Shown here: positions 19,826 to 61,899 of the stretch, piece after piece
Layout: each line of letters opens with the position of its first letter
How positions within the stretch are numbered: position 1 is the stretch's first letter
Origin: a virus
Lineage: Duplodnaviria > Caudoviricetes
Virus record (IMG/VR): IMGVR_UViG_3300027730_000005
DNA: 64,000 nucleotides
Strand: one strand, 5' to 3'
Notes under the pieces: model-generated
What the model saw: the letters and a program-made list of their open reading frames with translations, nothing else
Told to the model about the DNA's origin: nothing
The model's database searches: none
Position numbers and translations under genes: made by a program

Positions 19826-19858
19826 CTTTCACTCCTGTTTGTTGCTGTCTATGTGTAT

Positions 19859-19929: not shown

Positions 19930-20169
19930 TTAGGCCATGTTGAGTTGAACTTGCAGACCTTCCCAAGTGCCGCCAAGGCCTGTGGAACACATCTCAACAC
20001 CGTCACCTGAACGGTATGCTTCGAGTGCATTCAGAGCCTTTTGAGTAGCGGCATTACAGTTCACAAAGTCACCGACACCGTTGCGAATCTGTTTAGCGGT
20101 GGCATAGAAACATGCATCACCAACAATCACGCGGAATTTTTGGCTGGTCCTAAAACGCTTCATGTTCAT
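19930..20169 (-). CDS. Hypothetical early protein
   Basis: Behind promoter cassette copy 2. Confidence 0.65.
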   Translation of the reverse strand: MNMKRFRTSQKFRVIVGDACFYATAKQIRNGVGDFVNCNAATQKALNALEAYRSGDGVEMCSTGLGGTWEGLQVQLNMA

Positions 20170-20202
20170 TTGGAGCTCCTGTTTGTTGCTGTCTATGTGT
20201 AT

Positions 20203-27347: not shown

Positions 27348-28241
27348 TTATACCTCAAACGTTTGCAAAGTCCAAACGTCAGCCTGGTGTTCGTAACCAA
27401 TGTATCCACGTGGGTTACATACCACACGACATGAACCAATCATGTAATCAAAGTTATGATGGGTATGTCCATGTGTCCATAACTTGATCTGCGGATGATT
27501 CAACATCAACTCACTCAAGTCCGAACTATATGCGCCATTCATCATGACATCATCCTGGTACTGTGGTTTGGTACTGAGCTTGCTAGGAGAATGATGTCCT
27601 ACCACTACAAACTTCCCTGCGGGATTCTCTGCCACTGCTGCACGAATAACTGTGAGCATGGCTTTGTGATCTTCCACAGAATCCTCTGGTGTGAACGTAG
27701 CCGGCCGTTCGTGAAATGTCACAATCTCTCGATCGGGATCATCAGGAAACTTTGGATTAGGCTGGTAACCTTTGAATGTGATCATTCTAAGACTATTTTT
27801 GATGCAACGGTAATCATTCATCATTTTACGAATACTATACAAAGTATGTGGATCTTCTTGATTCATATCAGTCCACAGTGTACCGCACACAAAGGTCACA
27901 TCACCCAGTGTGATGGTTTCTTTTTCCAGCACATGAAGGTTCTTCAAGTAGGCCAGTTTTTCACGAAGGTGGGATATTGTGGTACCGTAGTCACCATGAT
28001 AATGTTCATGGTTGCCCACGATGTAAATCACGTGCTTGAACTGTGCTGCACAGTTTTCAAAAAATTCGTGATACTTATGGCTCTTGGTATGTTCGCCCAG
28101 GAGATTGTGAACGTCACGATCAGCTAGATCACGTGCCACACAGATATCGCCGCTGAGAATCAATACATCGGCACCTTCGGTGTTGTGCAGTTCAAGTGGT
28201 CCAAATTCCAAGTGTACATCAGATGCTAGTGCTATTTTCAT
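27348..28241 (-). CDS. Calcineurin-like metallophosphoesterase
   Basis: SDVHLE, SGDI, GNHEHY, GHHSP, HGHTH, NPRGY. Confidence 0.9.
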   Translation of the reverse strand: MKIALASDVHLEFGPLELHNTEGADVLILSGDICVARDLADRDVHNLLGEHTKSHKYHEFFENCAAQFKHVIYIVGNHEHYHGDYGTTISHLREKLAYLKNLHVLEKETITLGDVTFVCGTLWTDMNQEDPHTLYSIRKMMNDYRCIKNSLRMITFKGYQPNPKFPDDPDREIVTFHERPATFTPEDSVEDHKAMLTVIRAAVAENPAGKFVVVGHHSPSKLSTKPQYQDDVMMNGAYSSDLSELMLNHPQIKLWTHGHTHHNFDYMIGSCRVVCNPRGYIGYEHQADVWTLQTFEV

Positions 28242-40381: not shown

Positions 40382-40699
40382 ATGTTCAAGAAAATCGTAG
40401 AATTCTTTACTGGAAAGAAAACCGAAAGCAACTTTGCTCATCCCCTGGATGCAGTTACCGCCCCCAATGTGCCACAAGCACCATACAAGGTTCCTGAACC
40501 TGTTGCCACAAAACCAATTCCGGTTGTTGAGCAGCCTACTACTGTTGAAAAAGTTGTAGCAGAGCCAGCTCAGACTGAAAAGAAACCTGCGGTGAAGAAA
40601 CCTGCTGCGACGAAGCCTGTTGTGAAGAAACCTGCGGTGAAGAAGCCCGCTGTGAAGAAGCCAGCTGCGCCTCGCAAGCCTCGCACCCCCAAACAATAA
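40382..40699 (+). CDS. Lys/Pro/Ala-rich histone H1/AlgP-like protein
   Basis: KKPA repeats at the C-terminus; SD AGGAG. Confidence 0.6.
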   Translation: MFKKIVEFFTGKKTESNFAHPLDAVTAPNVPQAPYKVPEPVATKPIPVVEQPTTVEKVVAEPAQTEKKPAVKKPAATKPVVKKPAVKKPAVKKPAAPRKPRTPKQ

Positions 40700-40753
40700 T
40701 CTTACACTATATCATAGATCCAGTCCCATGTAAATACTACGTGGGGGGGTTCT

Positions 40754-41194
40754 ATGAAAATAAAAATAATAACAATAGCCTTGCTTGTAGTAACAATACA
40801 GGTCAGGGCTGCCGAACTGGTACATCAGTTCAATTCATCTGCATTCAACGGTGTTGGATACAGCAGTCATGTTCTCACAATTGAACAACTAGAATCACAA
40901 CGTCGAAAAGCCTTGGCCGATGCTGCCAAATCCGCTGCTGACCAAGCCATTAGAGATGCCAAGAATACCAATCTGGCCAAATTCTTAGTCAATGTTGAAA
41001 GTCGTATCTATGCCCAACTCTCAAAACAGTTAGCCGATGCTATGTTTTCTGAAGGCGGTGAATCTGGCCAACTGAATTTTCAAGGTACCAACATCTCCTG
41101 GCTGAAAACTGCCACCGAAGTCACACTAACCATTATGGAAAATTCAGGCAATCGCACTGAAATCACTGTACCCATCGGGAGTTTTGCATTTTGA
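40754..41194 (+). CDS. csgF: Curli assembly CsgF-like protein
   Basis: Signal peptide, then ELVHQFNSSAFNG, aligning with the CsgF N-terminus (FQFRNPNFGG). Confidence 0.7.
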   Translation: MKIKIITIALLVVTIQVRAAELVHQFNSSAFNGVGYSSHVLTIEQLESQRRKALADAAKSAADQAIRDAKNTNLAKFLVNVESRIYAQLSKQLADAMFSEGGESGQLNFQGTNISWLKTATEVTLTIMENSGNRTEITVPIGSFAF

Positions 41195-42006
41195 TCCGAA
41201 CTGTGCTATCACTGTTGTTGGCTACTGTACTCACTGGTTGTGCCGCAGTGCTGTGGGACACTGAACGTGAAGAGCCTCGTGTGATCCCCAGGGTAAGGCT
41301 GTTGGATTCTATACCTGCATTGGATGGCCCTCCTATGCCTATTGCTGTGTATGGATTTTTAGACAAAACTGGTCAAATGAAATCCAATGATCGACTAGCC
41401 CTATTTTCCAAAGCAGTAACCCAAGGTGCCGAAGTGTTTCTGATCAAGGCTCTGCAAGACACAGGCCGTTGGTTTACTGTAGTGGAACGAGTGGGGTTAG
41501 ACAATCTCATCAAAGAACGCCAACTCATACGTAATCAACGCGAAGTGTATGAAGGCAAAGATGCCAAACCCTTGCGGCCCATGCTGGTGGCTGGTATTAT
41601 GATTGAAGGTGGCATTGTGGGTTACGATACCAATTTACGTTCAGGTGGCGCCGGAGCCAGAATCATGGGAATTGGCAATTCCGTGCAATATCGAGTGGAC
41701 GAAGTGGTTGTGGCCTTGAGGTTTGTGTCGGTGCATACAGGCGAAGTGTTAATCAATACTGCTGTGAGTAAGACCATTTACAGCACTGCTCAAAATGCAG
41801 GCATGCTGAGGTTTGTGGATGTGGGCACACGAGCTGTGGAATTAGAAGCTGGTGCTGCACTCAACGAACCTACAACCTACGCTGTTCGAGTGGCTATTGA
41901 ACAGGCTGTGTATGAAACTATCATCACAGGTGAACGTCGAGGACTATGGCGTTTTAAAACTACAATGAGCGTGTCTGGGGAAAACTCGGGCATAGATAAA
42001 AAATGA
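41191..42006 (+). CDS. csgG: Curli secretion channel lipoprotein CsgG
   Basis: Lipobox LTGC; IAVYGFLDKTGQ.K, FSKAVTQGA, WFTVVER.GLDNL.KERQLIR. Confidence 0.9.
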   Translation: MIRTVLSLLLATVLTGCAAVLWDTEREEPRVIPRVRLLDSIPALDGPPMPIAVYGFLDKTGQMKSNDRLALFSKAVTQGAEVFLIKALQDTGRWFTVVERVGLDNLIKERQLIRNQREVYEGKDAKPLRPMLVAGIMIEGGIVGYDTNLRSGGAGARIMGIGNSVQYRVDEVVVALRFVSVHTGEVLINTAVSKTIYSTAQNAGMLRFVDVGTRAVELEAGAALNEPTTYAVRVAIEQAVYETIITGERRGLWRFKTTMSVSGENSGIDKK

Positions 42007-42602
42007 TAACAAAAACTCTCAAAAGTGTAATATTATTGGCAGTTATGCTGTGGTCCACAGCATGGGCCAATGAACTGTATATGGAACAAAGTGATGACTC
42101 GTCCACCATAACCATCACACAGGACGGTGCCAGCAATGAAATTGGCACACAACTGTCTCCGGTGTTTATTGGTGGAGGCTCAAATACTGTAAATATTGAA
42201 CAAATTGGTGCCGGCAACCAACTACAGTTTACAGTAAATGGTGCCACCACTGCTATGACCATTGAACAACACGGTAGCAACAATATCGGTACAGTGACTT
42301 GCGGTACCACTGCCAATGCCAGTTGCAGTGGCAGTACCATTTGGCAATTTATCACTGGTGATGACAACAACATCAGTCAGCTTCTAGGTGCCGGCGGAAA
42401 TCATACCAGCAAGATCACTGTGACTGGGGACACCAACACAGTGAGTCATACCAGTACCAACACAGGCGCTGTGAGTATGCAATACCTAGTAACTGGGAAC
42501 AGTAATTCAATTTCAGTGACCACTGCAGGTACCACAGCCAAGACTCTCAATGCAACTACTACTGGCAATAGCAATACTGTTACTATCGTTCAGACCAACT
42601 GA
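42003..42602 (+). CDS. Curlin-like (CsgA/CsgB) repeat protein
   Basis: Signal peptide AWA; about seven Q/T-x-G-x-x-N repeats at roughly 22-aa spacing. Confidence 0.7.
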   Translation: MITKTLKSVILLAVMLWSTAWANELYMEQSDDSSTITITQDGASNEIGTQLSPVFIGGGSNTVNIEQIGAGNQLQFTVNGATTAMTIEQHGSNNIGTVTCGTTANASCSGSTIWQFITGDDNNISQLLGAGGNHTSKITVTGDTNTVSHTSTNTGAVSMQYLVTGNSNSISVTTAGTTAKTLNATTTGNSNTVTIVQTN

Positions 42603-43623
42603 TGCAGTAGCTTCTGTCGGAACAATTACTTCCTTGACAGGACCCACTGAAATAGTAAGAAAGCGACAAAGCATGCCTAGTCAGGCTGGCTCGGCCATTG
42701 AGATGAATGACACAGTGGTCACTGCTCGCGCTCGAGCAGAACTGACTTTTGTAGACCGGACTCAGGTCAAAATCACTGAACAGTCAAAACTGATCATAGA
42801 TGACTTTGTGTATGATTCCAATCAAGGTACAGGTAAACTGGCATTGAAAATGGCGCTGGGTACTGCTAGATATGCGTCAGGACAGATTGCCAAGAACTCA
42901 CCGCAAAATGTAGCTGTGCAAACTCCTACGGCCACAGTGGCTGTGCGTGGCACAGATTTCTCAATGACTGTGGACGAACTGGGTCGCAGTATGATTGTAT
43001 TACTACCCAGTTGCGATCAAAACAGTTGTGTCACCGGAGTGATTGAAGTGTTCAACGAAGCTGGTCGTGTGATGCTTACCCAGGCCTATCAAGCCACACT
43101 GGTCACAAGTTTGAGTACTCCGCCCAGTCAACCTACAATGATCACTGTGGATATCAATAACATAAACAATTTGCTGATCATTAGCCCACCTGTTGAACTG
43201 CGCAGAGAAGAATTTCAAAATAGCCGCCAAGAACAAGAATTCAATCTGCTAAATGTAGATTTCTTACGATACGATGAGCTGGAAAAAAACTATCTAGACA
43301 ACAGATTTTTGGATGTTGATTTTTTAGAAAACACGTTTTTGAGTAATGAATTGGATGCAGTTGGAATAAATGTCTGGGCAGCAACTGCTTATTTGTTGGA
43401 TAATGGCATGATGCCAGGATATGATCCCGCTAGTTTATTGCGATACACTGTGGATGATCAAGATCGCTTGTTTCTCATACGCAAAGTCAACAATCACTAC
43501 ACTGAACTCATTGTGAGCAAAGAAGCCAATCTAGTAGTAGATATTCGGCAAGACGGCATTCCTGTATGGCAGAGGGTAAATCGCGGAGGATCTACCACAG
43601 TTACAATTGTGCAAAGGCAATAA
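42550..43623 (+). CDS. Exported FecR-domain protein
   Basis: Signal peptide; D.V.T...A.L.F.D.T...I...S.L.ID.F, L.M..GTARY, V.TPTATVAVRGTDF. Confidence 0.8.
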   Translation: MQLLLAIAILLLSFRPTDAVASVGTITSLTGPTEIVRKRQSMPSQAGSAIEMNDTVVTARARAELTFVDRTQVKITEQSKLIIDDFVYDSNQGTGKLALKMALGTARYASGQIAKNSPQNVAVQTPTATVAVRGTDFSMTVDELGRSMIVLLPSCDQNSCVTGVIEVFNEAGRVMLTQAYQATLVTSLSTPPSQPTMITVDINNINNLLIISPPVELRREEFQNSRQEQEFNLLNVDFLRYDELEKNYLDNRFLDVDFLENTFLSNELDAVGINVWAATAYLLDNGMMPGYDPASLLRYTVDDQDRLFLIRKVNNHYTELIVSKEANLVVDIRQDGIPVWQRVNRGGSTTVTIVQRQ

Positions 43624-43630
43624 ATACTGT

Positions 43631-43912
43631 ATGGGTGATTATTTCAAACTTGTGGCCGAAGTGGGCTTTCCAATAGCAGCAGCCATAGCTGGCGGTTACT
43701 TTGTGTTTTTAACACTGAAGTTTATTCTAGCCGGGGTAACCAGCTCTGTGAATGGAATCAAAGGTATAATCAGTGCTTTAGATAATCGTGTAAAAACCAT
43801 GAACCATGATGTCATACGCATAGATACTGTGGTTTCGAATGCGTTAGGTCTTGTACCTGATGTGGTCCGTGTGGCTCGTGCTGATGGCAAAAACGATGCT
43901 CGACGTGACTGA
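43631..43912 (+). CDS. Small single-TM protein (paralogue of 44073-44411)
   Basis: GFPIAAAIAGGYF plus coiled coil. Confidence 0.7.
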   Translation: MGDYFKLVAEVGFPIAAAIAGGYFVFLTLKFILAGVTSSVNGIKGIISALDNRVKTMNHDVIRIDTVVSNALGLVPDVVRVARADGKNDARRD

Positions 43913-43921
43913 AAGACAATT

Positions 43922-44086
43922 ATGCTATTTGTTGACTACACACTTCGCACTGCCGACAATGGCAACATTATTCTCGACGAAGAACTCAAAGCTCAAAGTT
44001 TGGGCGTAGCAGAGGGTGATACCTTTGTGGTTCATATTGTAAACAATCAAATTATATTAGAAAAACAACAACATGGACTTAGCTGA
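43922..44086 (+). CDS. AbrB/MazE-like 54-aa protein not in the track
   Basis: Translated by hand: LGVAEGDTFVVHIVNNQIILEK. Confidence 0.55.
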   Translation: MLFVDYTLRTADNGNIILDEELKAQSLGVAEGDTFVVHIVNNQIILEKQQHGLS

Positions 44087-44411
44087 ACTTATCAACAAAT
44101 ACGGTTTCCCCATTGTGGCTGCTGGAGGTCTTGGGTATCTCATATATTACGTATGGGTATGGGCTACCAAAGAAATCAAGCCTGTGCTGAGTGAAGCCAA
44201 TAGCACACTGATTGCGTTGATCGATCGTATCCGTATGCTTGACAACGATCTTATTAGACTGCAACAAAAAGTCAATGTCACACTGCAATTGCGTGGCAAA
44301 GTCATTGAAAGCGAACGTGTGCTAGCACAACAGAAATTTGATTCCGAAGCTGAAACAAAATTCAAGAAGGCAGCGGCGGAAGACTCCGACACTGCTGCTG
44401 GCAAAAGTTAA
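44073..44411 (+). CDS. Small single-TM protein (paralogue of 43631-43912)
   Basis: GFPIVAAGGLGYL...LDNDLIR. Confidence 0.7.
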   Translation: MDLAELINKYGFPIVAAGGLGYLIYYVWVWATKEIKPVLSEANSTLIALIDRIRMLDNDLIRLQQKVNVTLQLRGKVIESERVLAQQKFDSEAETKFKKAAAEDSDTAAGKS

Positions 44412-45112
44412 TGACATTACTCATAGCCACGCTGTTGATGACACATGCTACTATAGTTTGTGTTACACTTTATCTACACCGCAGTCAAACTCATAGATCA
44501 GTAGAATTCCATCCGCTTGTGGCGCATGGCATGCGCCTTTGGCTGTGGCTGTCAACTGGTATGGTCACACGCCAATGGGTTGCTATACATCGTTCTCATC
44601 ATCGGCACAGTGATCAATCTGACGATCCGCACTCGCCCCATGTGTGGGGTATTTGGCGTGTGCTGTTTGGTGGTGCGTGGCTTTATAATCAAGCTGCTCA
44701 AGATAGTGCATTAGTTAAGCAATACGGAGTAGGCACTCCCGACGACTGGATTGAACGTAACCTGTATACTGCACATAGCCGCCTTGGTATTCTTTTGATG
44801 CTGATTATAGATTTATTGTTATTTGGGCCTTGGGGACTTATGGTGTGGGTCGTACAAATGCTATGGGTACCTTTTCACGCCGCCGGAGTTATTAATGGAT
44901 TAGCACATTGGTGGGGTTATAAAAATGGTCCCACCAAGGATCAAAGTCGTAACATCAGTCCCTGGGGAATATGGATTGGTGGCGAGGAATTGCATTCTAA
45001 TCATCACCAAGAACCAGCTAGTGCTAAATTAAGTCGCAAGTGGTTTGAATTTGACGAAGGTTGGATGTGGATCTGTATTTTACGTTTTTTTAAACTTGCC
45101 AAAGTTCGTTAA
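44411..45112 (+). CDS. Membrane fatty-acid (delta-9-like) desaturase
   Basis: His boxes HRSQTH, HRSHH, LHSNHH. Confidence 0.9.
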   Translation: MTLLIATLLMTHATIVCVTLYLHRSQTHRSVEFHPLVAHGMRLWLWLSTGMVTRQWVAIHRSHHRHSDQSDDPHSPHVWGIWRVLFGGAWLYNQAAQDSALVKQYGVGTPDDWIERNLYTAHSRLGILLMLIIDLLLFGPWGLMVWVVQMLWVPFHAAGVINGLAHWWGYKNGPTKDQSRNISPWGIWIGGEELHSNHHQEPASAKLSRKWFEFDEGWMWICILRFFKLAKVR

Positions 45113-47161
45113 TTATTTTTCGGTCGCTATCCATTCACCATTCCAATTGGACGGTAAGGCTTGCCGCTTCATAAAGTCGCAACGTTCCGTCCATATCTTA
45201 TAATACTTGTCCATCTGTCCGCCAAAGTTTCCCTTTAGATCTGCACACATTACAGCAGCTTCGTCAAACTTTTTCTGTCGATACAAGGCATGCATCGCTT
45301 CGTGTTGTGCTTTGTCTTTAGAGTAATCTGTGCCTTTGGTGCGTAGAGCTGTATAGATCAAGTCTGCTACAGTTTTACCCTTTGGTTGTAAGTTATCTAG
45401 CAACAAATACAAGAAGTCATCTTTGGTTCTATTATATGTTTCGGCACCAATAATACATAGCACACCATATGCTTTGCAACGTGCTTCCAAACGTGCAGCG
45501 GTGCTCACCATGTCACCCAAGATGTCATAGCTGTGTCTTTCTGTTGATCCCATTTCACCAATAAAGCCAATACCACTGTTACAACCCCAACCCATTGCAG
45601 CAGGTGGTAATCCCTGTGCTTCCATAACTTTGGTATACTCGTCTACCTTGTCTAGCATTTCAAGTCCTACCTTAACAATTGTTCGTGCGTGGTCAGGATC
45701 TTCAATAGGAGCACCGTGTATGTGCATTGATGCATCGCCCACATACTTGATGACCATACCTTGGTTGTCTAGCATTGGCTGACTAATGGCATCCATATAA
45801 CCGTTCATGTACTTGCCAAGTCCGGCAACGTCATCGCCATAGTATTCACCAATAGGAGTAAATCCACGCAAGTCGCTGAACATAACTGATACGTCTTTAC
45901 GCACACCTCGCTTGATTAAGTCTGGATCTTTTTGTAGTAACTCTACTACTTCTTTGGAGCAGTAACCGGCAAACTGTTTCTTTATGGCTTGCTTTTGCAA
46001 GAACTCGCTTAGAAACTTGATACCATAGGCATGCAGAGCGACCAAAGTTGTGCCAACTGCAAAGGCAGTAGCATCGAATAAGAATAAAAAATTGCTGTAA
46101 GCAAGAATGCTGCCAGCAATACCGCCGCCCACAATAACCAAAACTGTCGCCATACCTGCATAAGTATACCTCGTCAAAAACAACAATGTTAGGCCAGCCA
46201 GAGCCATGGCCAATATCTCAGCACCGTCGGCCCAATCAGGCCGCACAATGCGACGTTCTGAAGTCAGGGTATCTAGTACAGCGGCCTGCAGATAATGCGG
46301 GAAGACCTCACCTCTTGCAGTGGCCACTGGGTTGTTGAGTCCCCGGGCGGATAAGCCCACAATGACGATTCCACCTTGGAAATCTTTTGGCAAACTAGCC
46401 AAGGAGTGTTCTTGCGGTCGGGATGACCAATCCACCCAGATTCTACCAAGACTGTCTGTTGGGATTTTTCCAAACTGTGGAATTCTAACTGCTTCAATAA
46501 TTCCTGAGTTGACTCGAACTTGGAAAGAGGGGTCGCCTGCTGCAACTCGTAGGGTTTCAAGACTGATAGAGGGGTAGATCTGTTGTCCAACACTGACGAC
46601 CATGGGGATTCTGCGAACGACACCGTCCAGTTCGGGCACAGTGTTAACAATACCAATACCAGCTGCTGTTTCATTGATCTTCCTTTCGTTGGGTTGAATT
46701 GCCCGGTATGGTATGCCCGGTTCACCTGAACCAATCACGCTTACACCAGGTCTAAATGGCACAGTGTTGGTGCGCACTGGGTCATTGGTTGCGGTGTGTG
46801 GCAACACCACAGGATATTTTTGTAAGAGTTGCGCCAATTGCTGATCTTGACCTGCACGATCTGCGTCGGGCATGAACACATTAAACACCACAAGACCTGC
46901 ATTACGCTGATAGAGATCTTGAATTATTTGGGCGTATTGGCCCCGGGGAAAAGGAAACTGTCCACGCTGCTCAATGGCCTGATCATCAATGTTCACTAGA
47001 TGTACGCCAGAGCTGGCCGTGGTTGGTGTGCTGGTTATCACTGTGTCAAAGTAACGCAGCCTAACACTTTCTACTAAGGCTGGATCTGCGATTCTAATGC
47101 CAACCATTATGGCTAGAGTTAGCAGCGCAGTCCAAGGGGATAACAGTAATTTTTTTACCAC
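45113..47161 (-). CDS. CHASE2-domain class III nucleotidyl cyclase
   Basis: TM-CHASE2-3TM-cyclase; FSDLRGFT, KYVGDA, YDILGDMVSTAARLE; start GTG 47161 or TTG 47164. Confidence 0.9.
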   Translation of the reverse strand: MVKKLLLSPWTALLTLAIMVGIRIADPALVESVRLRYFDTVITSTPTTASSGVHLVNIDDQAIEQRGQFPFPRGQYAQIIQDLYQRNAGLVVFNVFMPDADRAGQDQQLAQLLQKYPVVLPHTATNDPVRTNTVPFRPGVSVIGSGEPGIPYRAIQPNERKINETAAGIGIVNTVPELDGVVRRIPMVVSVGQQIYPSISLETLRVAAGDPSFQVRVNSGIIEAVRIPQFGKIPTDSLGRIWVDWSSRPQEHSLASLPKDFQGGIVIVGLSARGLNNPVATARGEVFPHYLQAAVLDTLTSERRIVRPDWADGAEILAMALAGLTLLFLTRYTYAGMATVLVIVGGGIAGSILAYSNFLFLFDATAFAVGTTLVALHAYGIKFLSEFLQKQAIKKQFAGYCSKEVVELLQKDPDLIKRGVRKDVSVMFSDLRGFTPIGEYYGDDVAGLGKYMNGYMDAISQPMLDNQGMVIKYVGDASMHIHGAPIEDPDHARTIVKVGLEMLDKVDEYTKVMEAQGLPPAAMGWGCNSGIGFIGEMGSTERHSYDILGDMVSTAARLEARCKAYGVLCIIGAETYNRTKDDFLYLLLDNLQPKGKTVADLIYTALRTKGTDYSKDKAQHEAMHALYRQKKFDEAAVMCADLKGNFGGQMDKYYKIWTERCDFMKRQALPSNWNGEWIATEK

Positions 47162-47168
47162 CAAATAT

Positions 47169-48323
47169 TTATCGTGGCAGGCCTCTTAAAATATCTATCA
47201 TACGATGAGCTAAATTGCGAAACCATTTCTCATCGTGTCCACGGGTTGTTTCTGCGGCCACACCAATACGTACACCTGATGTTTCAGCAAAGCTACGAGT
47301 TTCGCCTGGTACACCATTTTTGTTTACGGTGATTCCTTGTGCTTCTAATTTATCAGCATACTCGCGACCACTCATGGCATGATTACGCAGATCTACAGTG
47401 AACATATGACATTGTGTGCTGCCACTCACGATGTCAACTCCTGCATCTAGAAACGTTTGTGCCATGGCATGTGCGTTGATGCGAATACGTTTGGCATACA
47501 GTTTGAATTCTGGTTGTAGTGCTTCATAAAAGCACTGTGCCTTGCCAGCAATGATGTGCATGAGCGGACCACCCTGGGTTCCAGGAAACACTGCACCATT
47601 AATTTTCTTGCTAAGTTCATCGTCATTCCACATGATCATACCACCACGAGGACCGCGTAAAGTCTTATGTGTAGTTGTGGTTACAACGTGAGCATGAGGG
47701 AATGGACTTGGATATTCGCCGCCAGCAATCAATCCTGAATAGTGGCTGATATCTGCTAGTAAGACGGCACCAACAGAGTCTGCAATTTCACGAAATCTCT
47801 TCCAATCAATCACTTGACTGTATGCACTAGCTCCAGCAATGATCATCTTAGGACGATTCCACTCGGCTAGTTTTTTGACTTCTTGATAGTTAATAAAACC
47901 ATTTTCGCCTACACCATAACTAACAGGATCAAACCATGCGCCGCTGACATTTACGTTGGCACCGTGGCTCAAATGCCCGCCACTGGCAAGATCCATTCCA
48001 AGAACGCAGTCACCTGGAGTCAATAATGCCTTGAACACTGCTAGGTTGGCATTAGCGCCTGAGTGTGGTTGCACATTGGCAAATGAACAGCCAAACAACT
48101 TGGTAGCATATTCAATGGCAATGTTTTCAATCTTGTCAACATTGGCACATCCATTGTAGTATCGCTTGCCCGGCAAGCCTTCTGCATACTTGTTGGTTAA
48201 AATACTACCACACAATTCCATAACTGCATCACTAGTGTAGTTTTCACTGGCAATAAGTTCAATTGTATTTTCTTGTCTGATTGCTTCGTTGTTTAAAGCA
48301 ATGTGAATTCTTGGATCTATCAT
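47169..48323 (-). CDS. glyA: Serine hydroxymethyltransferase
   Basis: ELIASEN, NKYAEG, NVQPHSG, GGHLSHG, TTTHKTLRGPRGG. Confidence 0.95.
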   Translation of the reverse strand: MIDPRIHIALNNEAIRQENTIELIASENYTSDAVMELCGSILTNKYAEGLPGKRYYNGCANVDKIENIAIEYATKLFGCSFANVQPHSGANANLAVFKALLTPGDCVLGMDLASGGHLSHGANVNVSGAWFDPVSYGVGENGFINYQEVKKLAEWNRPKMIIAGASAYSQVIDWKRFREIADSVGAVLLADISHYSGLIAGGEYPSPFPHAHVVTTTTHKTLRGPRGGMIMWNDDELSKKINGAVFPGTQGGPLMHIIAGKAQCFYEALQPEFKLYAKRIRINAHAMAQTFLDAGVDIVSGSTQCHMFTVDLRNHAMSGREYADKLEAQGITVNKNGVPGETRSFAETSGVRIGVAAETTRGHDEKWFRNLAHRMIDILRGLPR

Positions 48324-48327
48324 ACTT

Positions 48328-48834
48328 TTAACTATTTAAAACCTTGGCAACACTATTCATCACACTAGCAATTCGACCAATGTCACGAAGTTGTTCGACA
48401 GTATAACCTTCTGTCTTCAATGTTTCGTAATGTGCTTTTACACAGAAGTGGCATTTACCAACAATACTGGCCGCTAGACTGAATGCTTCAAAGTTCGACT
48501 TGGTAGTTCCGCCATGGCTTGCGATAGCGTTCATTCTGAGTTGTGCCGGTAACCCCTTGAGAGCAGGATCATCTGCCATTTCGACGAATGGGTAAAAAAT
48601 ATTGTTCTGTGCCATAATACTAGCGGCTGTCATGGCAGCATCTGCATGAACAGGTGCGTCTGCTAGCATAACTGCAAGTACCTTACCGTTGCCAGTTGCA
48701 GCAAGTGCAGCCACCGCACAACCCATGGCCACATCTGCATCTAATGTACTACGTAGTAGCACAGCATCCAGATTTAACTTGGTGTCCTTGGCATAGTCTG
48801 GCAATGCGCCTTTTACTGATTCAATAAAACTCAT
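48328..48834 (-). CDS. ahpD: Alkyl hydroperoxide reductase AhpD
   Basis: LPDYAKD.KLNL; SIVGKCHFCVKAH. Confidence 0.88.
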   Translation of the reverse strand: MSFIESVKGALPDYAKDTKLNLDAVLLRSTLDADVAMGCAVAALAATGNGKVLAVMLADAPVHADAAMTAASIMAQNNIFYPFVEMADDPALKGLPAQLRMNAIASHGGTTKSNFEAFSLAASIVGKCHFCVKAHYETLKTEGYTVEQLRDIGRIASVMNSVAKVLNS

Positions 48835-49466
48835 TCTTTTCTTCCTTCAATGGTATAAAACCAATCATCTCCAGCCGACCACTTGCGTGTACCATCAACT
48901 GTGAATATTGTCTGTGCGGCTTTAAAGTCTGGAAACTTAACATTACCCGAAATCAAACTTTGATCGTACCACAAACATCGATTGTTGGGTTGGCAGGCAA
49001 ACTGACCATTTTCTAATTTAATAAAATTAAACGATTTGTGTTCTTCGGCAACTTCAGTAAAGCCTGTGTCTACATCCATGCCGTCGGCACAAAAATCCAC
49101 AGTAAACAAATAAGTCCCGTGATGCCATTCCTTGTCTTTGCCCAAGAACTTAACACCTAAATTACGCAGACCTATTTTTTCAATAATAGTAAAGCGGTAG
49201 CCCATGCAGTCCCAAAGCTGTAGGGTATCTATGGGCAAATTACCTGTGTAATTCTCTTGCCACACATACGCATGAATAGGTAGCTTGTCGTACAGTGCTC
49301 CATAATTGGGTAACAGTGATTCAATTCGAAACACCTGTCCCCTAAGAGCTTTGAGACTGACCCATATTGCAGGTTCTAATTCACCGTGACCTTTTTCAAA
49401 GTTGTAAAGAAATTCACGTTTTATAAAACATTTAATCGGCGGCAAAGATCCTACAATATAACTCAT
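48831..49466 (-). CDS. Conserved hypothetical protein
   Basis: GALYDKLPIHAY...LQLWDC...QPNNR. Confidence 0.7.
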   Translation of the reverse strand: MSYIVGSLPPIKCFIKREFLYNFEKGHGELEPAIWVSLKALRGQVFRIESLLPNYGALYDKLPIHAYVWQENYTGNLPIDTLQLWDCMGYRFTIIEKIGLRNLGVKFLGKDKEWHHGTYLFTVDFCADGMDVDTGFTEVAEEHKSFNFIKLENGQFACQPNNRCLWYDQSLISGNVKFPDFKAAQTIFTVDGTRKWSAGDDWFYTIEGRKE

Positions 49467-50155
49467 TCTTTTCTATCGCCAAATAATTGTAACAAGTTAA
49501 TAAACAAGTTGATGAAGTCCATGTACAGAGTCAATGCACCACGCACTTCTGCGCTATCACTGGTCTCAGTACTAAGTTCCTCACGAATCTTTTGTGTGTC
49601 ATAGGCAGTTAGGCCAAGAAAGATAACGATAGCCAATGCTGAAATTACCATCTGCATCACAGTTGAGCCAATAAAAATATTAACAATACTAGCAATAACA
49701 ATAGCAATCAATCCAACAATCATAAACTTACCCATGCTGTCTAGGCTTTGTTTAGTAAAGTAGCCGTAACCACTCATGACACCAAACAAGATAGCTGCAC
49801 CCATAAATGAGCTTACAATGCTACCCATATTGAATACAGCAAAAATTGTAGCAAAGCTCAATCCCATTAGGGCCGCAAAGCCATGTAAGCATAACTGTGC
49901 CACGCCTTTACTGGGATTATTGCCTAGCACATAGCTGACACCAAAGATTGCCGCTAGTGGAGCAAAAATAACAACCCATTTTAACACACCTGTAAAAAAG
50001 AATTGTAGTAACTCTGGGCTAGAACCCACAAAATAGCTCACAAACATTGATACAATCACAGCAAGGCTCATGTGTCCGTAGACCCGACACATTGCTGAGT
50101 TGATTTCGCTTGCAGAACGATATGATCTTTCGTTTTCATAAGTTGTTTCAAACAT
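49463..50155 (-). CDS. Bax inhibitor-1/YccA family membrane protein
   Basis: About 7 TM; GLTAYDTQKI, ALTLYMDFINLF. Confidence 0.9.
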   Translation of the reverse strand: MFETTYENERSYRSASEINSAMCRVYGHMSLAVIVSMFVSYFVGSSPELLQFFFTGVLKWVVIFAPLAAIFGVSYVLGNNPSKGVAQLCLHGFAALMGLSFATIFAVFNMGSIVSSFMGAAILFGVMSGYGYFTKQSLDSMGKFMIVGLIAIVIASIVNIFIGSTVMQMVISALAIVIFLGLTAYDTQKIREELSTETSDSAEVRGALTLYMDFINLFINLLQLFGDRKE

Positions 50156-50165
50156 AAGTTTCTCC

Positions 50166-50786: not shown

Positions 50787-50982
50787 AATTATTTTCCGTA
50801 TTGTTTTTTGGCAAATCATTTGCCAGGGCATCCTCGTAAGTCAGTGATGGATCGTTCCAGATGTTACAATTATTCCACTCACGAATCCTGGCCAATCTCT
50901 CCGCGTCAGTCAGTTCATAACATCTAGGGTTACGATCTGGCTGACGAAGTGTATCAATGCCTCTACTTAGAAGCCTGAACAT
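50767..50982 (-). CDS. Small hypothetical protein
   Basis: ORF track. Confidence 0.5.
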   Translation of the reverse strand: MFRLLSRGIDTLRQPDRNPRCYELTDAERLARIREWNNCNIWNDPSLTYEDALANDLPKNNTENNYVRNYL

Positions 50983-59433: not shown

Positions 59434-60774
59434 ATGAATATTCCTTTAGATAATCTTTATCATTGGGTGCAAGGCCTAGTACAACATCCAATGATACTTT
59501 ATGTATTCCGTCCACATGGCAGCAAAGATATTTTTAATCTAACTCAGTTTGAAAACTATCCAGCCATAACATATCTATTAGACATAGCGCCAGTGGTTAT
59601 CTGCCATGACCAGGAACCATTAAATTTCAACGACCATAAATTTAATTTTGATCTTGATCGAATCAAACAGTTGTTATTACATAGAGGTCGTAACAGAAAT
59701 GAGTTAAATATTCCAATAGAATTTTATTCTCATTTATCGTCATTTCCTAATTTTAATCCAAATTGGCTCAGAGCGGCCATTGGTCATAATGATTGGTTTA
59801 TACTGTTACATAGTGAAAAGAATAGTTTGGATGTTGAGCAGTTTTCGCATGTGGGATTTGTTCCAGTTTACTATTGGAGTCATGCCATGATTGCCAGAGA
59901 TTGGTACAGATTTGCCCAACACGATAAGAGACTGACTCAGAAAAAAATACAAAAAACTTTTCTTGTGTATTGCAGAGACTGGATGCCACGTCGTGAATAT
60001 AGATTAAAATTTCTTGATTTATTAGTAAACGCCGATTTAATCAATGACTGTAACATCAGCACTCAACACGTAAACAATCAAGGTGTGCATCTTAAAGATT
60101 ATGTTGCCAAAGATTCAAGATTTGCCATTGATACAAAACGTCTTGAGATTATACCCGACAACAATGTCAGCTCAAACGCTAGTGCTGACTACGATGTAAC
60201 TGACATAAATGCCACTGCTATCAGTGTGGTGTTAGAAACAGTAGTAGATGATAAGATTCATCTGACAGAAAAGATATTCAGACCCATTGCCTGCGCACAC
60301 CCGTTTGTGCTAGTAGCGGGCCCTGGATCACTGGCATATCTTAGAAGTTATGGATTTAAGACATTTGATTCTGTGTTTGATGAAAGTTATGATCAACAAA
60401 CCGATACTGTTAAACGATTAGAAATGGTTGTTCAACTCATGCAAAACATACAACAACTGACTGAGGCAGATTGGAGAGAAATCAATGACATTGCTGCATA
60501 TAATAAACAACATTTTTTCAGCGATTCATTTGTAAATCAAGTTAAGGTCGAATTACAAACAAATCTCAATGGCGCAGTAGAATTCTGTCTTGAAAACCGT
60601 GGTGACACCTGGTGGAGATGGCGGAAGATTTTAAGACGCACAAGACAACTTTATCAACTTGCTATTTTTAAATCTGACTTAGATAAGAATACCATTCGCG
60701 AATTAAGAAAACATAGATTACGAAAATCGCAGAATAACCCCAGTCCAGTCGTCCCCAAGGGTTTGGGTCTTTAG
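59434..60774 (+). CDS. Glycosyltransferase-like protein (third TEK..RP family member)
   Basis: SVVLET...TEKIFRPI...PFVLVAG...GFKTF..VFDESYD; start MNIPLD inferred. Confidence 0.55.
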   Translation: MNIPLDNLYHWVQGLVQHPMILYVFRPHGSKDIFNLTQFENYPAITYLLDIAPVVICHDQEPLNFNDHKFNFDLDRIKQLLLHRGRNRNELNIPIEFYSHLSSFPNFNPNWLRAAIGHNDWFILLHSEKNSLDVEQFSHVGFVPVYYWSHAMIARDWYRFAQHDKRLTQKKIQKTFLVYCRDWMPRREYRLKFLDLLVNADLINDCNISTQHVNNQGVHLKDYVAKDSRFAIDTKRLEIIPDNNVSSNASADYDVTDINATAISVVLETVVDDKIHLTEKIFRPIACAHPFVLVAGPGSLAYLRSYGFKTFDSVFDESYDQQTDTVKRLEMVVQLMQNIQQLTEADWREINDIAAYNKQHFFSDSFVNQVKVELQTNLNGAVEFCLENRGDTWWRWRKILRRTRQLYQLAIFKSDLDKNTIRELRKHRLRKSQNNPSPVVPKGLGL

Positions 60775-61071
60775 ATCTTGAATACGTTCAATTAACACAG
60801 TATAAAAAGTGTCAAGTTCGCCATTCCATTTGCCTCGAAGATGCTCCACAGCATCTTCACAATATTTCCAATTGCGCTTGCGATACTCTTTTAATAGATT
60901 ACTGTGCAATTCTTTGAATGTGTCCAAACTAAGCATTTCCATCAATGTTACTCGTTCAACCAGTGCGTAGGTAGTGGTCAGTTGTTGATCCACTTGAAAT
61001 GTGTCTAGTTCTAATACTATGTATTTTTCTCGGGCTTGTTGTGCTGCCAGGTTGCCAAATATTATGTTCAT
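60718..61071 (-). CDS. Conserved hypothetical protein
   Basis: KYIVLELDTF; SD AAGGA. Confidence 0.65.
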   Translation of the reverse strand: MNIIFGNLAAQQAREKYIVLELDTFQVDQQLTTTYALVERVTLMEMLSLDTFKELHSNLLKEYRKRNWKYCEDAVEHLRGKWNGELDTFYTVLIERIQDLKTQTLGDDWTGVILRFS

Positions 61072-61095: not shown

Positions 61096-61899
61096 ATGAG
61101 CATGACATTTGATTTAATTTCAGATCTACATCTGGAAACATGGCCCGGGGAATTTGATTGGTCCGGGCAACCTACTAGCCCGGTGTGTGTAGTAGCTGGA
61201 GACATAAGTTCAGATCCTAGAATAGTGAGAAACTGTTTGAAACATCTGGCCAATTGTTATGCGGCTGTGTTTTACATAGACGGTAATGACGAGCATACCT
61301 ATAACTATCACAGAATAGGTCAAAGCTATCAAGAATTAGCTCGCAGTATTAATCGATTACATCGAGTCACATATCTTCAAGACAATGTGGTTGTAATTGA
61401 CGGTGTGGCTATATTGGGTACTAATGGATGGTGGGGATACGATCTAGATGAAAATATCAACAGAGACGATTGTAAACAACACATGACCGATTGGTACGCC
61501 AAGAAAATGCCTGGATTTAAAATAAATCCTGAAGAAATCAGTGACATGTCCAGACGTGATGTAGCTTATCTGGTCAACAGTGTGCAACGATTACAAACAC
61601 ACAATGATGTAAAAAAGATTGTGATTGTAACACATACTGTGCCTGGTGCGCATTTGATACAACATGATATAGAATTAGCAAATACCACACAGTTTAATCA
61701 CATGGGCAATAGACTCATGCATCTAGTGCATACCAATGATACTGAACGCAAAATAAACACCTGGTGCTTTGGCCACTATCATGGTAATGTGGACAAAACT
61801 ATAGAAGGTATAAGATTTGTAAACAATTGCCGAGGGCGCGGCGACACATCTTATCGGCAAGATGTTTACTTTCCCAAACGCATAGAAATAAAAACTTAA
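61096..61899 (+). CDS. Calcineurin-like metallophosphoesterase
   Basis: ISDLHL, AGDI, DGNDEH, THTVP, FGHYH. Confidence 0.85.
   Translation: MSMTFDLISDLHLETWPGEFDWSGQPTSPVCVVAGDISSDPRIVRNCLKHLANCYAAVFYIDGNDEHTYNYHRIGQSYQELARSINRLHRVTYLQDNVVVIDGVAILGTNGWWGYDLDENINRDDCKQHMTDWYAKKMPGFKINPEEISDMSRRDVAYLVNSVQRLQTHNDVKKIVIVTHTVPGAHLIQHDIELANTTQFNHMGNRLMHLVHTNDTERKINTWCFGHYHGNVDKTIEGIRFVNNCRGRGDTSYRQDVYFPKRIEIKT

What the first reader, a model, noticed from the sequence alone, without database searches (positions are those of the whole stretch)
40725..47179. Curli-type secretion locus with its own curlin, FecR protein and CHASE2 cyclase: candidate phage trans-envelope signalling system
Seen: csgF-csgG-curlin-FecR are coupled by overlapping starts/stops, followed by two paralogous TM proteins, an AbrB-like gene, a desaturase and a convergent CHASE2 cyclase. 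csgF and the cyclase both have TAAATA cores. Known: csgF/csgG have been reported in SAR11 and OM43 myophages, mostly without a subunit. In S. meliloti, CHASE2 cyclases with a FecR-containing outer-membrane partner relay surface cues to cAMP. Inference: the phage builds an amyloid fibre or pore on the infected cell and couples its state via FecR to a cyclic-nucleotide signal (lysis timing, superinfection sensing, aggregation). No csgE or csgD is seen in the window.
Basis: partly seen in the sequence, partly recalled or inferred. Interest (0 to 1): 0.8.

Follow-up and report, generated by a model that had tools for sequence, protein, structure and literature searches.

The report
Known phage curli–FecR–cyclase module, lake variant
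A giant lake-water phage carries the curli-fibre export genes joined to a FecR-type protein and a membrane receptor adenylate cyclase; this cassette was published for marine phages in 2022, so the locus is a real new member of a known kind whose function is still untested.

Summary
Window 40754-47164 encodes CsgF, lipoprotein CsgG, one curlin-repeat protein, a secreted FecR-domain protein, two paralogous small membrane proteins, a weak AbrB/MazE-like ORF, a DesA-type desaturase and a convergent CHASE2 class III cyclase with ATP-type specificity residues.

The contig is a viral record, about 44% of a ~350 kb phage, and its DNA is held in lake-water metagenomes.

The cassette is not new. It is annotated in Pelagibacter phage HTVC008M and Methylophilales phage Melnitz. 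Wittmers et al. 2022 (PMC9599517) described it with CsgA/B, FecR and the cyclase. This scan has already met it in at least 45 other genomes.

- csgF, curlin, FecR and the cyclase co-occur in 34 of 34 adequately flanked relatives, through three gene orders.
- The same cassette sits in three alphaproteobacterial chromosomes, whose CsgG is sister to the phage clade.
- Half of the nearest bacterial FecR genes have a CHASE2 gene next to them.
- The curlin folds as a beta-solenoid like solved CsgA.
- The FecR C-terminal domain ends in a curlin-like unit and co-diverges with the curlin.
- The CHASE2 domain tracks the envelope proteins, not its own catalytic domain.
- A phosphoesterase and a free copy of the cyclase tail, 14 kb away here, lie next to csgF in relatives.

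The signalling mechanism remains inferred.

The parts
40731..40736 (+). TAAATA promoter-like core, 17 nt before the csgF start
   Evidence: Read in the sequence. The motif is enriched upstream of ORF starts: 12 of 35 against 1.2 expected, p 1.4e-9. It also precedes a tail-fibre gene at 8745-11084. Late-class expression is an inference from its likeness to the T4 late promoter core TATAAATA.
40754..41194 (+). CsgF-like curli assembly protein with an N-terminal signal peptide
   Evidence: Pfam PF10614, E 1.3e-11. phrog_35372, E 1.1e-49. Present in 34 of 34 relatives.
41191..42006 (+). CsgG outer-membrane lipoprotein channel (LTGC lipobox)
   Evidence: Pfam PF03783, E 5e-50. E. coli CsgG, E 4e-47 over residues 8-256. 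F56 of the E. coli constriction loop is kept, while Y51 and N55 are replaced by N and L in that alignment.
42003..42602 (+). Curlin-repeat fibre subunit; the only copy in the contig
   Evidence: Pfam Curlin_rpt, 28 bits. QxGxxN repeats are conserved in 24 relatives. Its profile matches Pontibacter CsgA 8c50 at E 2.5e-9. AF2 model: pLDDT 86.8, strand-turn-strand pattern. Structural match to 8c50_A at Z 16.1 and to E. coli CsgA fibril 8enq at Z 12.8. No second curlin in the 154 kb contig.
42550..43623 (+). Secreted FecR-domain protein. It has a signal peptide, a FecR domain (22-205) with a conserved Cys pair, a Leu/Asp-rich linker and a C-terminal beta domain that ends in a curlin-like unit
   Evidence: Pfam PF04773, E 6e-11. 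phrog_37870, E 4.3e-95. Alignment A1. AF2 model pLDDT 58.6, with the C-terminal strands near 80. The C-terminus aligns end to end with the last curlin repeats in hhalign, E 8.4e-4, probability 24%. The C-domain co-diverges with the curlin: partial Mantel r 0.60, p 0.0005.
43628..43912 (+). Small membrane protein tm1 (phrog_18771); an alternative TTG start lies at 43607
   Evidence: phrog_18771, E 1.7e-32. No Pfam, NCBIfam or PADLOC family. Within 10 kb of csgG in 27 of 34 relatives. Its homologues are the hypothetical genes just upstream of csgF in Melnitz and HTVC008M.
43922..44086 (+). 54-aa AbrB/MazE-like ORF; weak call and not a constant member
   Evidence: MazE_antitoxin at 20 bits, under the 24.7 cut-off. 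Found in 4 of 34 relatives.
44073..44411 (+). Small membrane protein tm2, a paralogue of tm1
   Evidence: phrog_18771, E 2.8e-29. Found in 29 of 34 relatives.
44411..45112 (+). DesA-family membrane fatty-acid desaturase with three His boxes; a facultative neighbour
   Evidence: PF00487, E 1e-12. NF049918 at 390 bits, covering model positions 10-240 of 385. Found in 15 of 34 relatives.
45113..47164 (-). CHASE2 receptor class III adenylate cyclase. Layout: TM1, periplasmic CHASE2 (about 26-312), three TM helices, catalytic domain (about 420-600) and a C-terminal helical tail (611-683)
   Evidence: Pfam CHASE2 E 2.6e-39 and Guanylate_cyc E 1.5e-13. Hydrophobic segments. Alignment to solved cyclases. 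D431, K473, D477, D547, R558 and K595 are conserved, but the canonical transition-state Asn is a Ser in this 'type A' lineage.
47166..47171 (-). TAAATA core that overlaps the glyA stop codon, 1 nt before the annotated cyclase start
   Evidence: The exact cyclase start codon (TTG or the next GTG) is uncertain.
60718..61071 (-). Free-standing 117-aa homologue of the cyclase C-terminal tail
   Evidence: BLASTP to cyclase residues 571-676, E 2e-8. Tail profile, E 1.5e-16. Its orthologues lie directly upstream of csgF in L048, L037, L038, L049, L045, L056, L018 and L030.
61096..61899 (+). Divergent calcineurin-type phosphoesterase, a candidate cyclic-nucleotide phosphodiesterase, lying head to head with the tail copy
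   Evidence: Motifs DxH, GD, GNDE and GHxH were read in the sequence. TIGR03729, E 4e-13, under its cut-off. Metallophos_2, E 0.002. Its orthologues lie within about 1.5 kb upstream of csgF in six relatives. The substrate is not known.
27348..28241 (-). Second metallophosphoesterase, whose orthologue lies next to tm1 in relatives L012 and L020
   Evidence: Pfam Metallophos, E 1e-9, over the cut-off. 45% identity to the L012 gene at 19368-20171.

Best explanation
This is the lake-phage version of the viral type VIII (curli) secretion module with a built-in cAMP sensor.

Shown:
- The phage encodes a complete minimal export set: CsgG channel, CsgF cap and one curlin subunit predicted to be a beta-solenoid.
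- It also encodes a secreted FecR-domain protein, a CHASE2 receptor cyclase with ATP-type specificity residues, and two small membrane proteins.
- Elsewhere in the window lie a phosphoesterase and a free copy of the cyclase tail that sit beside csgF in relatives.
- The set is inherited as a unit in marine and freshwater phages and in three alphaproteobacterial chromosomes.

Inferred mechanism:
- Probably late in infection, the genes from csgF to the desaturase are transcribed from the TAAATA site.
- CsgG and CsgF form the outer-membrane channel, and the curlin is exported and polymerises.
- The FecR protein acts as an adaptor. Its C-terminal curlin-like unit binds curlin, either subunits in the periplasm or the fibre base. 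Its N-terminal FecR domain contacts the periplasmic CHASE2 domain.
- The state of curlin export or of the fibre would thereby set cAMP synthesis in the cytoplasm.
- A phosphoesterase would reset the signal.
- No cyclic-nucleotide receptor was found in the part of the phage that is held, so cAMP would act through host receptors.

What the phage gains (aggregation, a shield against other phages, or timing of lysis) is not known.
For: Identity of the parts.

Beta-solenoid fold of the curlin.

Phage origin: tail-fibre, baseplate and head-protease families in the window. The contig is a viral record at 44% completeness. Relatives lie on contigs of up to 364 kb.

Linkage: csgF, curlin, FecR and cyclase in 34 of 34 relatives with three different gene orders. 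The same set is in HTVC008M and Melnitz. It is also in bacterial chromosomal contexts, loci L076, L079 and L086.

The CsgG proteins linked to FecR and CHASE2 form one clade (support 100/99), apart from canonical alphaproteobacterial CsgG, whose loci lack FecR and CHASE2.

FecR-CHASE2 pairing outside phages: 33 of 66 bacterial FecR loci have a CHASE2 gene within 4 kb. Published clusters agree: PMC5192318, PMC9239204 and PMC7529298.

Adaptor model:
- The FecR C-terminus aligns end to end with the last curlin repeats.
- The same terminal strand is kept in Melnitz and HTVC008M.
- The FecR C-domain co-diverges with the curlin after controlling for csgG, csgF and the FecR N-domain (r 0.60, p 0.0005). 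The N-domain, which lies between them on the DNA, does not (r 0.08).
- CHASE2 co-diverges with the FecR N-domain (partial r 0.26, p 0.007) but not with its own catalytic domain (r 0.05).

Phosphoesterase and tail copy beside csgF in relatives.

Shared TAAATA cores.
Against: - No experiment exists on any member of this module.
- The transition-state Asn of class III cyclases is a Ser here, so activity is not assured. Relatives with the other catalytic type keep the Asn.
- The window and its nearest relative L005 share 81% of the FecR N-domain but only 51% of CHASE2. That is looser than a tight binding pair would suggest.
- The likeness of the FecR C-terminus to a curlin repeat is weak (hhalign probability 24%). 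Only one short unit is involved.
- Partial Mantel tests on related sequences overstate significance.
- The FecR structural model is of low confidence (pLDDT 58.6).
- Only one curlin is present, so a separate nucleator is missing or lies in the unseen 56% of the genome.
- The cyclase TAAATA lies 1 nt from the annotated start. That fits poorly with a T4-type promoter unless the mRNA is leaderless or the start lies further downstream.
- No cyclic-nucleotide receptor was found in the contig.
Confidence: 0.45

Rival explanations
1. Fibre maker with a separate regulator. The curli genes build fibres that clump host cells ('sibling capture') or shield the infected cell from other phages. FecR and the cyclase only retune host physiology through cAMP in response to some unrelated envelope or environmental cue, with no physical link to the curlin.
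For: A complete minimal export set and a solenoid curlin. These uses were proposed in PMC7029224 and PMC9599517. FecR-CHASE2 pairs work without curli genes in most bacteria. The FecR N-domain and CHASE2 diverge rather freely between the window and L005.
Against: The linkage survives three gene orders and transfer between phage families and bacteria. The FecR C-domain carries a curlin-like end and co-diverges specifically with the curlin. No clumping was seen in Melnitz cultures (PMC9004378).
Confidence: 0.25
2. Lysis-timing pore. CsgG and CsgF act as a gated outer-membrane channel or pinholin-like device. The curlin acts as plug or cargo, and the cyclase, tm1 and tm2 feed into the lysis clock.
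For: Proposed for Melnitz (PMC9004378). tm1 and tm2 are small single-pass proteins of holin or antiholin size, and tm2 has a faint match to a holin family at its N-terminus (phrog_4898, E 0.0026). TAAATA cores are shared with structural genes.
Against: An outer-membrane channel cannot depolarise the inner membrane. CsgF, a curlin and FecR are not needed for a simple pore. No endolysin or spanin was seen beside the module in this window. The bacterial chromosomal copies lack tm1 and tm2 and any phage context.
Confidence: 0.1
3. Cyclic-nucleotide exclusion or defence-type system. The cyclase makes a signal that activates membrane effectors (tm1, tm2) to block superinfecting phages, as in Pycsar.
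For: The catalytic domain matches the Pycsar cyclase model PycC at E 1.5e-10. Two small membrane proteins travel with the cyclase, also in L087 where no csgFG was detected in the 16 kb fetched of a 22 kb contig.
Against: The PycC match is what any class III cyclase gives, and Pfam Guanylate_cyc scores better. The Lys/Asp specificity pair points to ATP. tm1 and tm2 have no cyclic-nucleotide-binding domain, and none is found in the contig. The CHASE2 sensor and the FecR partner are not Pycsar features.
Confidence: 0.05
4. Uptake channel. An ungated CsgG pore (no CsgE) lets larger solutes or cofactors into the infected cell, and FecR reports on iron or another nutrient.
For: No CsgE in the contig. 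The idea was raised in PMC7029224 and PMC9599517.
Against: It does not explain the conserved curlin, CsgF or the curlin-like end of FecR. This FecR protein has a signal peptide instead of the cytoplasmic anti-sigma part of iron-citrate FecR, and Pfam finds only PF04773.
Confidence: 0.05

Closest known systems
Viral T8SS (curli) module of pelagiphages and methylophages: HTVC008M, Melnitz and HTVC023P-type podophages (Zaragoza-Solas 2020 PMC7029224; Buchholz 2022 PMC9004378; Wittmers 2022 PMC9599517)
   Same: The same gene set: two small genes, csgF, csgG, a curlin-repeat gene, FecR and a cyclase. CsgG is 51-53% identical. All parts are homologous by tblastn. FecR ends in the same terminal strand.
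   Different: Lake water instead of ocean. A phage of about 350 kb instead of 30-150 kb. A separate freshwater CsgG clade. Only one curlin. The small membrane genes lie after FecR instead of before csgF. The cyclase is convergent, and a desaturase and an AbrB-like ORF are inserted. The phosphoesterase and tail copy are moved 14 kb away. The published papers do not name the CHASE2 domain. They call the small genes histidine kinases, but no kinase domain is detectable in the small genes at the matching position here.
Chromosomal csgF-csgG-curlin-FecR-CHASE2 cyclase operon of Caulobacterales genomes assembled from metagenomes (L076, L079 Caulobacteraceae; L086 Henriciella)
   Same: The same order and content of the five core genes. 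FecR is 35-45% identical, including the C-terminal domain in L076 and L079. Their CsgG falls in the same clade as the phage CsgG.
   Different: A bacterial housekeeping context: TonB receptors, methylmalonyl-CoA mutase and acyl-CoA dehydrogenase. No tm1 or tm2. Two curlins in L076 and L079. A Metallophos gene upstream of csgF in L076 is not detectably related to the window's. The operon is rare: one of 401 sampled alphaproteobacterial genomes, the query genome itself.
Bacterial FecR / CHASE2 sensor clusters: S. meliloti NsrA with CyaK/CyaD1/CyaD2; the Campylobacterota cluster of CHASE2 cyclase, phosphodiesterase, FecR outer-membrane protein and TPR protein; the Burkholderia LysM-FecR plus CHASE2 histidine kinase operon
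   Same: A periplasmic FecR domain is encoded next to a CHASE2 membrane sensor. The output is cAMP in two of the three systems. A phosphoesterase and a small helical protein also travel with the phage module.
   Different: The phage FecR protein has no outer-membrane barrel and no LysM domain. Its C-terminal part is curlin-like instead. In about 18 relatives, though not in this contig, a separate autotransporter-barrel protein follows FecR. The bacterial systems are not linked to curli genes.
Canonical curli system of E. coli (csgBAC-csgDEFG)
   Same: A CsgG lipoprotein channel (E 4e-47), CsgF, and a curlin subunit with QxGxxN repeats and a solenoid fold.
   Different: No CsgE match in the contig; CsgC and CsgD were not searched for; no separate CsgB. 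Constriction residues Y51 and N55 are replaced. FecR and a cyclase lie in the operon.

Membership tests
Viral T8SS/curli module (Wittmers 2022) | csgF and csgG adjacent on a phage genome | tested here: met
Viral T8SS/curli module (Wittmers 2022) | Curlin-repeat gene directly after csgG | tested here: met
Viral T8SS/curli module (Wittmers 2022) | FecR-domain gene directly after the curlin | tested here: met
   41% identity to the Melnitz and HTVC008M proteins.
Viral T8SS/curli module (Wittmers 2022) | Adenylate cyclase in the cluster | tested here: met
   45% identity to the Melnitz cyclase.
Viral T8SS/curli module (Wittmers 2022) | One or two small genes called 'histidine kinase' beside the module | tested here: inconclusive
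   tm1 and tm2 are homologous to the two genes that precede csgF in HTVC008M and Melnitz. They show no kinase domain. That they are the paper's 'HK' is judged from position only.
Viral T8SS/curli module (Wittmers 2022) | Second curlin-repeat gene after FecR (frequent, not universal) | tested here: not met
   No second curlin in the 154 kb contig. 56% of the genome is unseen.
Canonical curli T8SS | CsgG lipoprotein homologous to E. coli CsgG | tested here: met
Canonical curli T8SS | Subunit with curlin repeats that folds as a stacked beta-solenoid | tested here: met
   By prediction only.
Canonical curli T8SS | Separate nucleator (CsgB) and periplasmic factor CsgE | tested here: not met
   One curlin only. 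No CsgE match.
Canonical curli T8SS | Amyloid fibres on the cell surface | not testable with these tools
   Needs expression, dye binding and microscopy.
FecR / CHASE2 envelope sensor pair | Exported FecR domain encoded near a CHASE2 sensor | tested here: met
   The pairing recurs in 33 of 66 bacterial loci.
FecR / CHASE2 envelope sensor pair | CHASE2 domain between transmembrane helices, cytoplasmic output domain | tested here: met
FecR / CHASE2 envelope sensor pair | Outer-membrane anchor on the FecR partner (beta-barrel as in NsrA-type proteins) | tested here: not met
   The protein is 357 aa with no barrel. No autotransporter domain is found in the contig. A separate barrel protein follows FecR in about 18 relatives.
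FecR / CHASE2 envelope sensor pair | Physical contact between the FecR and CHASE2 domains | not testable with these tools
   Only indirect co-divergence is available.
Class III adenylate cyclase | Two metal Asp, Lys/Asp purine pair, transition-state Asn and Arg | tested here: inconclusive
   D431, D477, K473, D547 and R558 are present. The Asn is replaced by Ser in this lineage.
FecIRA-type anti-sigma FecR | Cytoplasmic anti-sigma N-terminus, one membrane span, cognate ECF sigma and TonB receptor | tested here: not met
   The protein has a cleavable signal peptide and only PF04773. No sigma factor or TonB receptor is among the neighbours.
Pycsar | Cyclase plus an effector with a cyclic-nucleotide-binding domain | tested here: not met
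   Weak PycC match only. No cNMP_binding domain in the contig.

The most novel reading that the evidence does not exclude
The amyloid itself is the ligand or antenna of a receptor cyclase. The FecR protein docks by its curlin-like last repeat onto curlin subunits or the fibre base. Through its FecR domain it sets the activity of the CHASE2 cyclase. A phage (and a few alphaproteobacteria) would then read the state of a surface amyloid, or of its export, as a cAMP signal. That would be the first amyloid-coupled trans-envelope sensor, and it would assign a first ligand class to a CHASE2 domain.
Probability: 0.18. Interest if true: 0.8.

Novelty: new member of a known kind. Interest (0 to 1): 0.42.

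Why it matters
The cassette is among the most widespread accessory modules of aquatic phages, yet it has no tested function. This member shows that it also lives in giant lake phages. It also shows that the cassette has a chromosomal counterpart in Caulobacterales.

That counterpart opens a route to testing. If a bacterium carrying the operon can be cultured and manipulated, the operon could be studied without an unculturable host.

The domain-level co-divergence gives concrete, cheap binding experiments: the FecR C-domain with the curlin, and the CHASE2 domain with the envelope parts rather than with its own catalytic domain.

If the adaptor model holds, it would give CHASE2 sensors, whose signals are largely unknown, a first defined input. 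It would also explain why phages carry amyloid genes.

Tried and rejected
- Complex prediction of the FecR domain (22-205) with the CHASE2 domain (26-312): no answer, score 0.01 against a mark of 0.32. This is neither support nor evidence against binding.
- Foldseek of the curlin model against PDB and Swiss-Prot models: nothing at E <= 0.001, and only beta-helix proteins among the weak rows. The exhaustive aligner then found CsgA.
- RNA evidence: no RNA holder is listed for the stretch, so expression could not be examined and read laying was not used.
- Megablast of 25 kb of the window against the phage collection: no match.
- CsgF against solved structures by sequence: no meaningful hit. Pfam does recognise it.
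- The paper on S. meliloti NsrA (PMC5952392) is not held, so the FecR content of NsrA rests on other papers' wording.
- Curlin_rpt search of the contig through the genome search found nothing, not even the known curlin. That search is insensitive for a 34-position model. My own profile found exactly one curlin.
- The window phosphoesterase against the L076 Metallophos gene: not detectably related (E 0.3).
- Protein Atlas look-ups of tm1 and the tail copy returned only unnamed viral clusters.
- I considered whether the lysine-rich histone-like ORF at 40382-40699 belongs to the module. I rejected it, because it is present in 0 of 34 relatives.
- I considered that the matches in bacterial assemblies were all mis-binned phage contigs. 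That is probably true for L073-L075, L077, L080-L082, L084 and L085, which carry tm1/tm2 or are short contigs. It is not true for L076, L079 and L086, which have housekeeping flanks.

Full report
WHAT IS THERE

The stretch 40754-47164 holds ten ORFs. Pfam identifies six of them:
- CsgF, E 1.3e-11.
- CsgG, E 5e-50.
- A curlin-repeat protein, 28 bits against a cut-off of 20.7.
- A FecR-domain protein, E 6e-11.
- A fatty-acid desaturase, E 1e-12.
- On the other strand, a protein with a CHASE2 domain (E 2.6e-39) and a class III cyclase domain (E 1.5e-13).

The two small ORFs at 43628-43912 and 44073-44411 are paralogues. Both belong to phrog_18771 and have no other family. The 54-aa 'AbrB-like' ORF scores under the Pfam cut-off.

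The plus-strand genes are packed with overlapping stops and starts. These include a 53-nt curlin/FecR overlap that recurs in relatives. The desaturase and cyclase stop codons abut.

CsgF, the curlin and FecR have signal-peptide-like N-termini, and CsgG has an LTGC lipobox (by inspection).

The window is phage DNA:
- It holds tail-fibre, baseplate and head-protease families.
- The contig is an IMG/VR record of 154 kb rated 44% complete.
- Relatives lie on contigs of up to 364 kb.
- Near-identical DNA is held in at least 16 lake-water metagenome runs.

IT IS A KNOWN MODULE

DNA and protein searches of the phage collection lead to Methylophilales phage Melnitz and Pelagibacter phage HTVC008M. Their records annotate csgF, csgG, curlin-repeat proteins, a FecR-domain protein and an adenylate cyclase in one block.

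The literature covers the cassette as follows:
- Zaragoza-Solas et al. 2020 first reported the csgF/csgG block.
- Buchholz et al. 2022 proposed a lysis-timing pore.
- Wittmers et al. 2022 described the full cassette, with CsgA/B, FecR, a cyclase and small 'histidine kinase' genes. They found it in podophages and myophages of SAR11, at all 65 ocean virome stations examined, and expressed.

This scan has also met the cassette in at least 45 other genomes, with the same verdict each time.

The curlin:
- It has conserved QxGxxN repeats.
- Its profile matches the solved Pontibacter CsgA, 8c50, at E 2.5e-9.
- It folds with pLDDT 86.8 into regular strand-turn-strand units.
- It aligns structurally to 8c50 at Z 16.1 and to the E. 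coli CsgA fibril at Z 12.8. Every other top row is a beta-helix.

Co-occurrence:
- Of 69 related viral loci, 34 have at least 8 kb upstream and 9 kb downstream of csgG.
- All 34 carry csgF, a curlin, FecR and the cyclase.
- tm1 is in 27, tm2 in 29, the desaturase in 15 and the AbrB-like ORF in 4.
- Three different arrangements occur.
- These loci are related to one another, so the count is not 34 independent events. Even so, the linkage has survived rearrangement.

THE CYCLASE

It has the usual CHASE2 topology: one transmembrane helix, a sensor of about 290 residues, then three transmembrane helices.

The metal aspartates, the Lys/Asp pair that specifies ATP, the arginine and the KGK motif are conserved. 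The transition-state asparagine is a serine here and in Melnitz ('type A'). Nine of 34 relatives, including HTVC008M and the window's nearest relative L005, have a 'type B' catalytic domain with Lys/Thr and the canonical Asn.

The gene is a mosaic. Divergence of the CHASE2 domain follows the FecR N-domain (r 0.75) and CsgG (0.72), but hardly its own catalytic domain (0.18).

FecR AND CHASE2 AS A PAIR

The nearest bacterial relatives of the phage FecR domain were fetched. Thirty-three of 66 have a CHASE2 gene within 4 kb, usually within 700 nt, and six of those have a cyclase output.

The literature reports the same pairing:
- Burkholderia: a LysM-FecR protein with a CHASE2 kinase (PMC5192318).
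- S. meliloti: the outer-membrane protein NsrA acts upstream of the CHASE2 cyclases (PMC7529298, PMC13001267).

It is neighbourhood evidence, not proof of contact.

A BACTERIAL COUNTERPART

Three assemblies carry csgF-csgG-curlin(s)-FecR-CHASE2 cyclase among ordinary chromosomal genes: two Caulobacteraceae and one Henriciella, the last on a 397 kb contig. The flanking genes include TonB receptors, methylmalonyl-CoA mutase and acyl-CoA dehydrogenase.

Seven canonical alphaproteobacterial curli loci lack FecR and CHASE2 within 10 kb. Only the query genome among 401 sampled alphaproteobacteria has the phage-type FecR.

In a CsgG tree, all CsgG proteins linked to FecR and CHASE2 form one clade (100/99). 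The Caulobacterales copies are sister to the phage copies, not nested in them. The window sits in a freshwater clade apart from the marine phages. The tree was rooted at the midpoint only, so the direction of transfer is open.

WHAT THE FecR PROTEIN LOOKS LIKE

Its layout is a signal peptide, a FecR domain with a near-invariant Cys pair, a Leu/Asp-rich linker predicted as disordered, and a six-strand C-terminal domain.

All family members, including Melnitz and HTVC008M, end in a strand of the type xTIxQ that resembles the end of their own curlin. Profile comparison aligns the last 44 columns of FecR end to end with the last curlin repeats (E 8.4e-4, probability 24%). That signal is weak.

Across 34 non-identical loci:
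- The FecR C-domain co-diverges with the curlin after controlling for CsgG, CsgF and the FecR N-domain (partial Mantel r 0.60, p 0.0005).
- The N-domain, which lies between the two on the DNA, does not (r 0.08).
- CHASE2 and the FecR N-domain show a modest partial correlation (0.26, p 0.007).

Such tests overstate significance for related sequences, so I treat them as leads. They fit an adaptor with one face towards the curlin and one towards the sensor.

FURTHER PARTS

A 117-aa ORF at 60718-61071 is a free copy of the cyclase's C-terminal tail. It lies head to head with a divergent calcineurin-type phosphoesterase at 61096-61899.

In six relatives this pair lies within about 1.5 kb upstream of csgF. 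In several more the tail copy alone does. A second phosphoesterase (27348-28241) has its orthologue next to tm1 in L012 and L020. The phage may therefore carry both synthesis and breakdown of a cyclic nucleotide, but the substrates are untested.

About 18 relatives have an autotransporter-barrel protein after FecR or between csgF and csgG. About 30 have a CsgG with a C-terminal extension, which is SH3-like in the one copy (L012) that was scanned. Neither feature is in this contig.

No cyclic-nucleotide receptor and no CsgE are found in the contig, but 56% of the genome is unseen.

TIMING

TAAATA sits before csgF and the cyclase. In the window it is strongly enriched just upstream of ORF starts, including a tail-fibre gene. 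By analogy with the T4 late promoter core this suggests late expression, which is an inference. The cyclase site lies only 1 nt from the annotated start, so either the start or the promoter reading is uncertain there.

VERDICT

The locus is a new, freshwater, giant-phage member of a published module.

The best-supported working model is a curli export machine whose curlin is read by a FecR adaptor and a CHASE2 cyclase, giving a cAMP signal. The parts and their linkage are shown; every mechanistic step is inferred.

Noticed in passing
window-wide, e.g. 11104, 29843, 36397, 40731, 47166, 55186, 59339, 61084: The hexamer TAAATA is enriched within 45 nt upstream of ORF starts (12 of 35 against 1.2 expected). 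It precedes a tail-fibre gene, pstS, csgF and the cyclase, so it looks like this phage's late-promoter core.
   Followed up: partly
window 45113-47164 and loci L005, L023, L037, L039, L049, L054, L056, L062: The cyclase gene is a mosaic. There are two catalytic-domain types: type A with Lys/Asp and Ser in place of the transition-state Asn, and type B with Lys/Thr and the canonical Asn. They are exchanged independently of the CHASE2 sensor domain.
   Followed up: partly
L012 13128-15176, L014 12921-14972, L039 8010-10001 and about 15 more loci: A protein of about 683 aa follows FecR, or sits between csgF and csgG, in about 18 relatives. In the two copies scanned that gave a match (L012, L014) it has a C-terminal autotransporter beta-domain. 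It is absent from this contig.
   Followed up: partly
L012 10001-11248 and about 30 other loci: Many relatives have a CsgG of 370-415 aa with a C-terminal extension. In L012, the one copy scanned, it is SH3-like (weak Pfam SH3_3/SH3_4 matches). The window's CsgG is 271 aa without it.
   Followed up: partly
L087 (Rickettsiales assembly, 22 kb contig): A 1327-aa FecR-domain protein, a CHASE2 cyclase, tm1 and tm2 lie together. No csgF or csgG was detected in the 16 kb of the 22 kb contig that was fetched. This suggests the two small membrane proteins belong with the cyclase rather than with the curli genes.
   Followed up: no
window 40382-40699: A 105-aa Lys/Pro/Ala-rich ORF with a weak histone H1-like (HC2) match lies just upstream of csgF. 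It has no counterpart in 34 related loci.
   Followed up: partly
window 45110-45115: The convergent desaturase and cyclase genes end on adjacent stop codons. There is no spacer and no terminator-like hairpin between them.
   Followed up: no
window 47169-51522: Upstream of the cyclase on the minus strand, and transcribed in the same direction, lies a run of host-like genes. They are serine hydroxymethyltransferase, an AhpD-like CMD protein, an unknown 211-aa ORF, a Bax-inhibitor-1 membrane protein, a class II aldolase and an AhpC/TSA peroxiredoxin.
   Followed up: partly
L012 15257-15592: A small cbb3-type cytochrome c gene lies inside the module of one relative, between the autotransporter-like gene and the cyclase.
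   Followed up: no
L076 5773-6633: In the Caulobacteraceae chromosome a canonical Metallophos phosphoesterase lies directly upstream of csgF. It is not detectably related to the window's phosphoesterases, so a phosphoesterase may have been recruited to the module more than once.
   Followed up: partly
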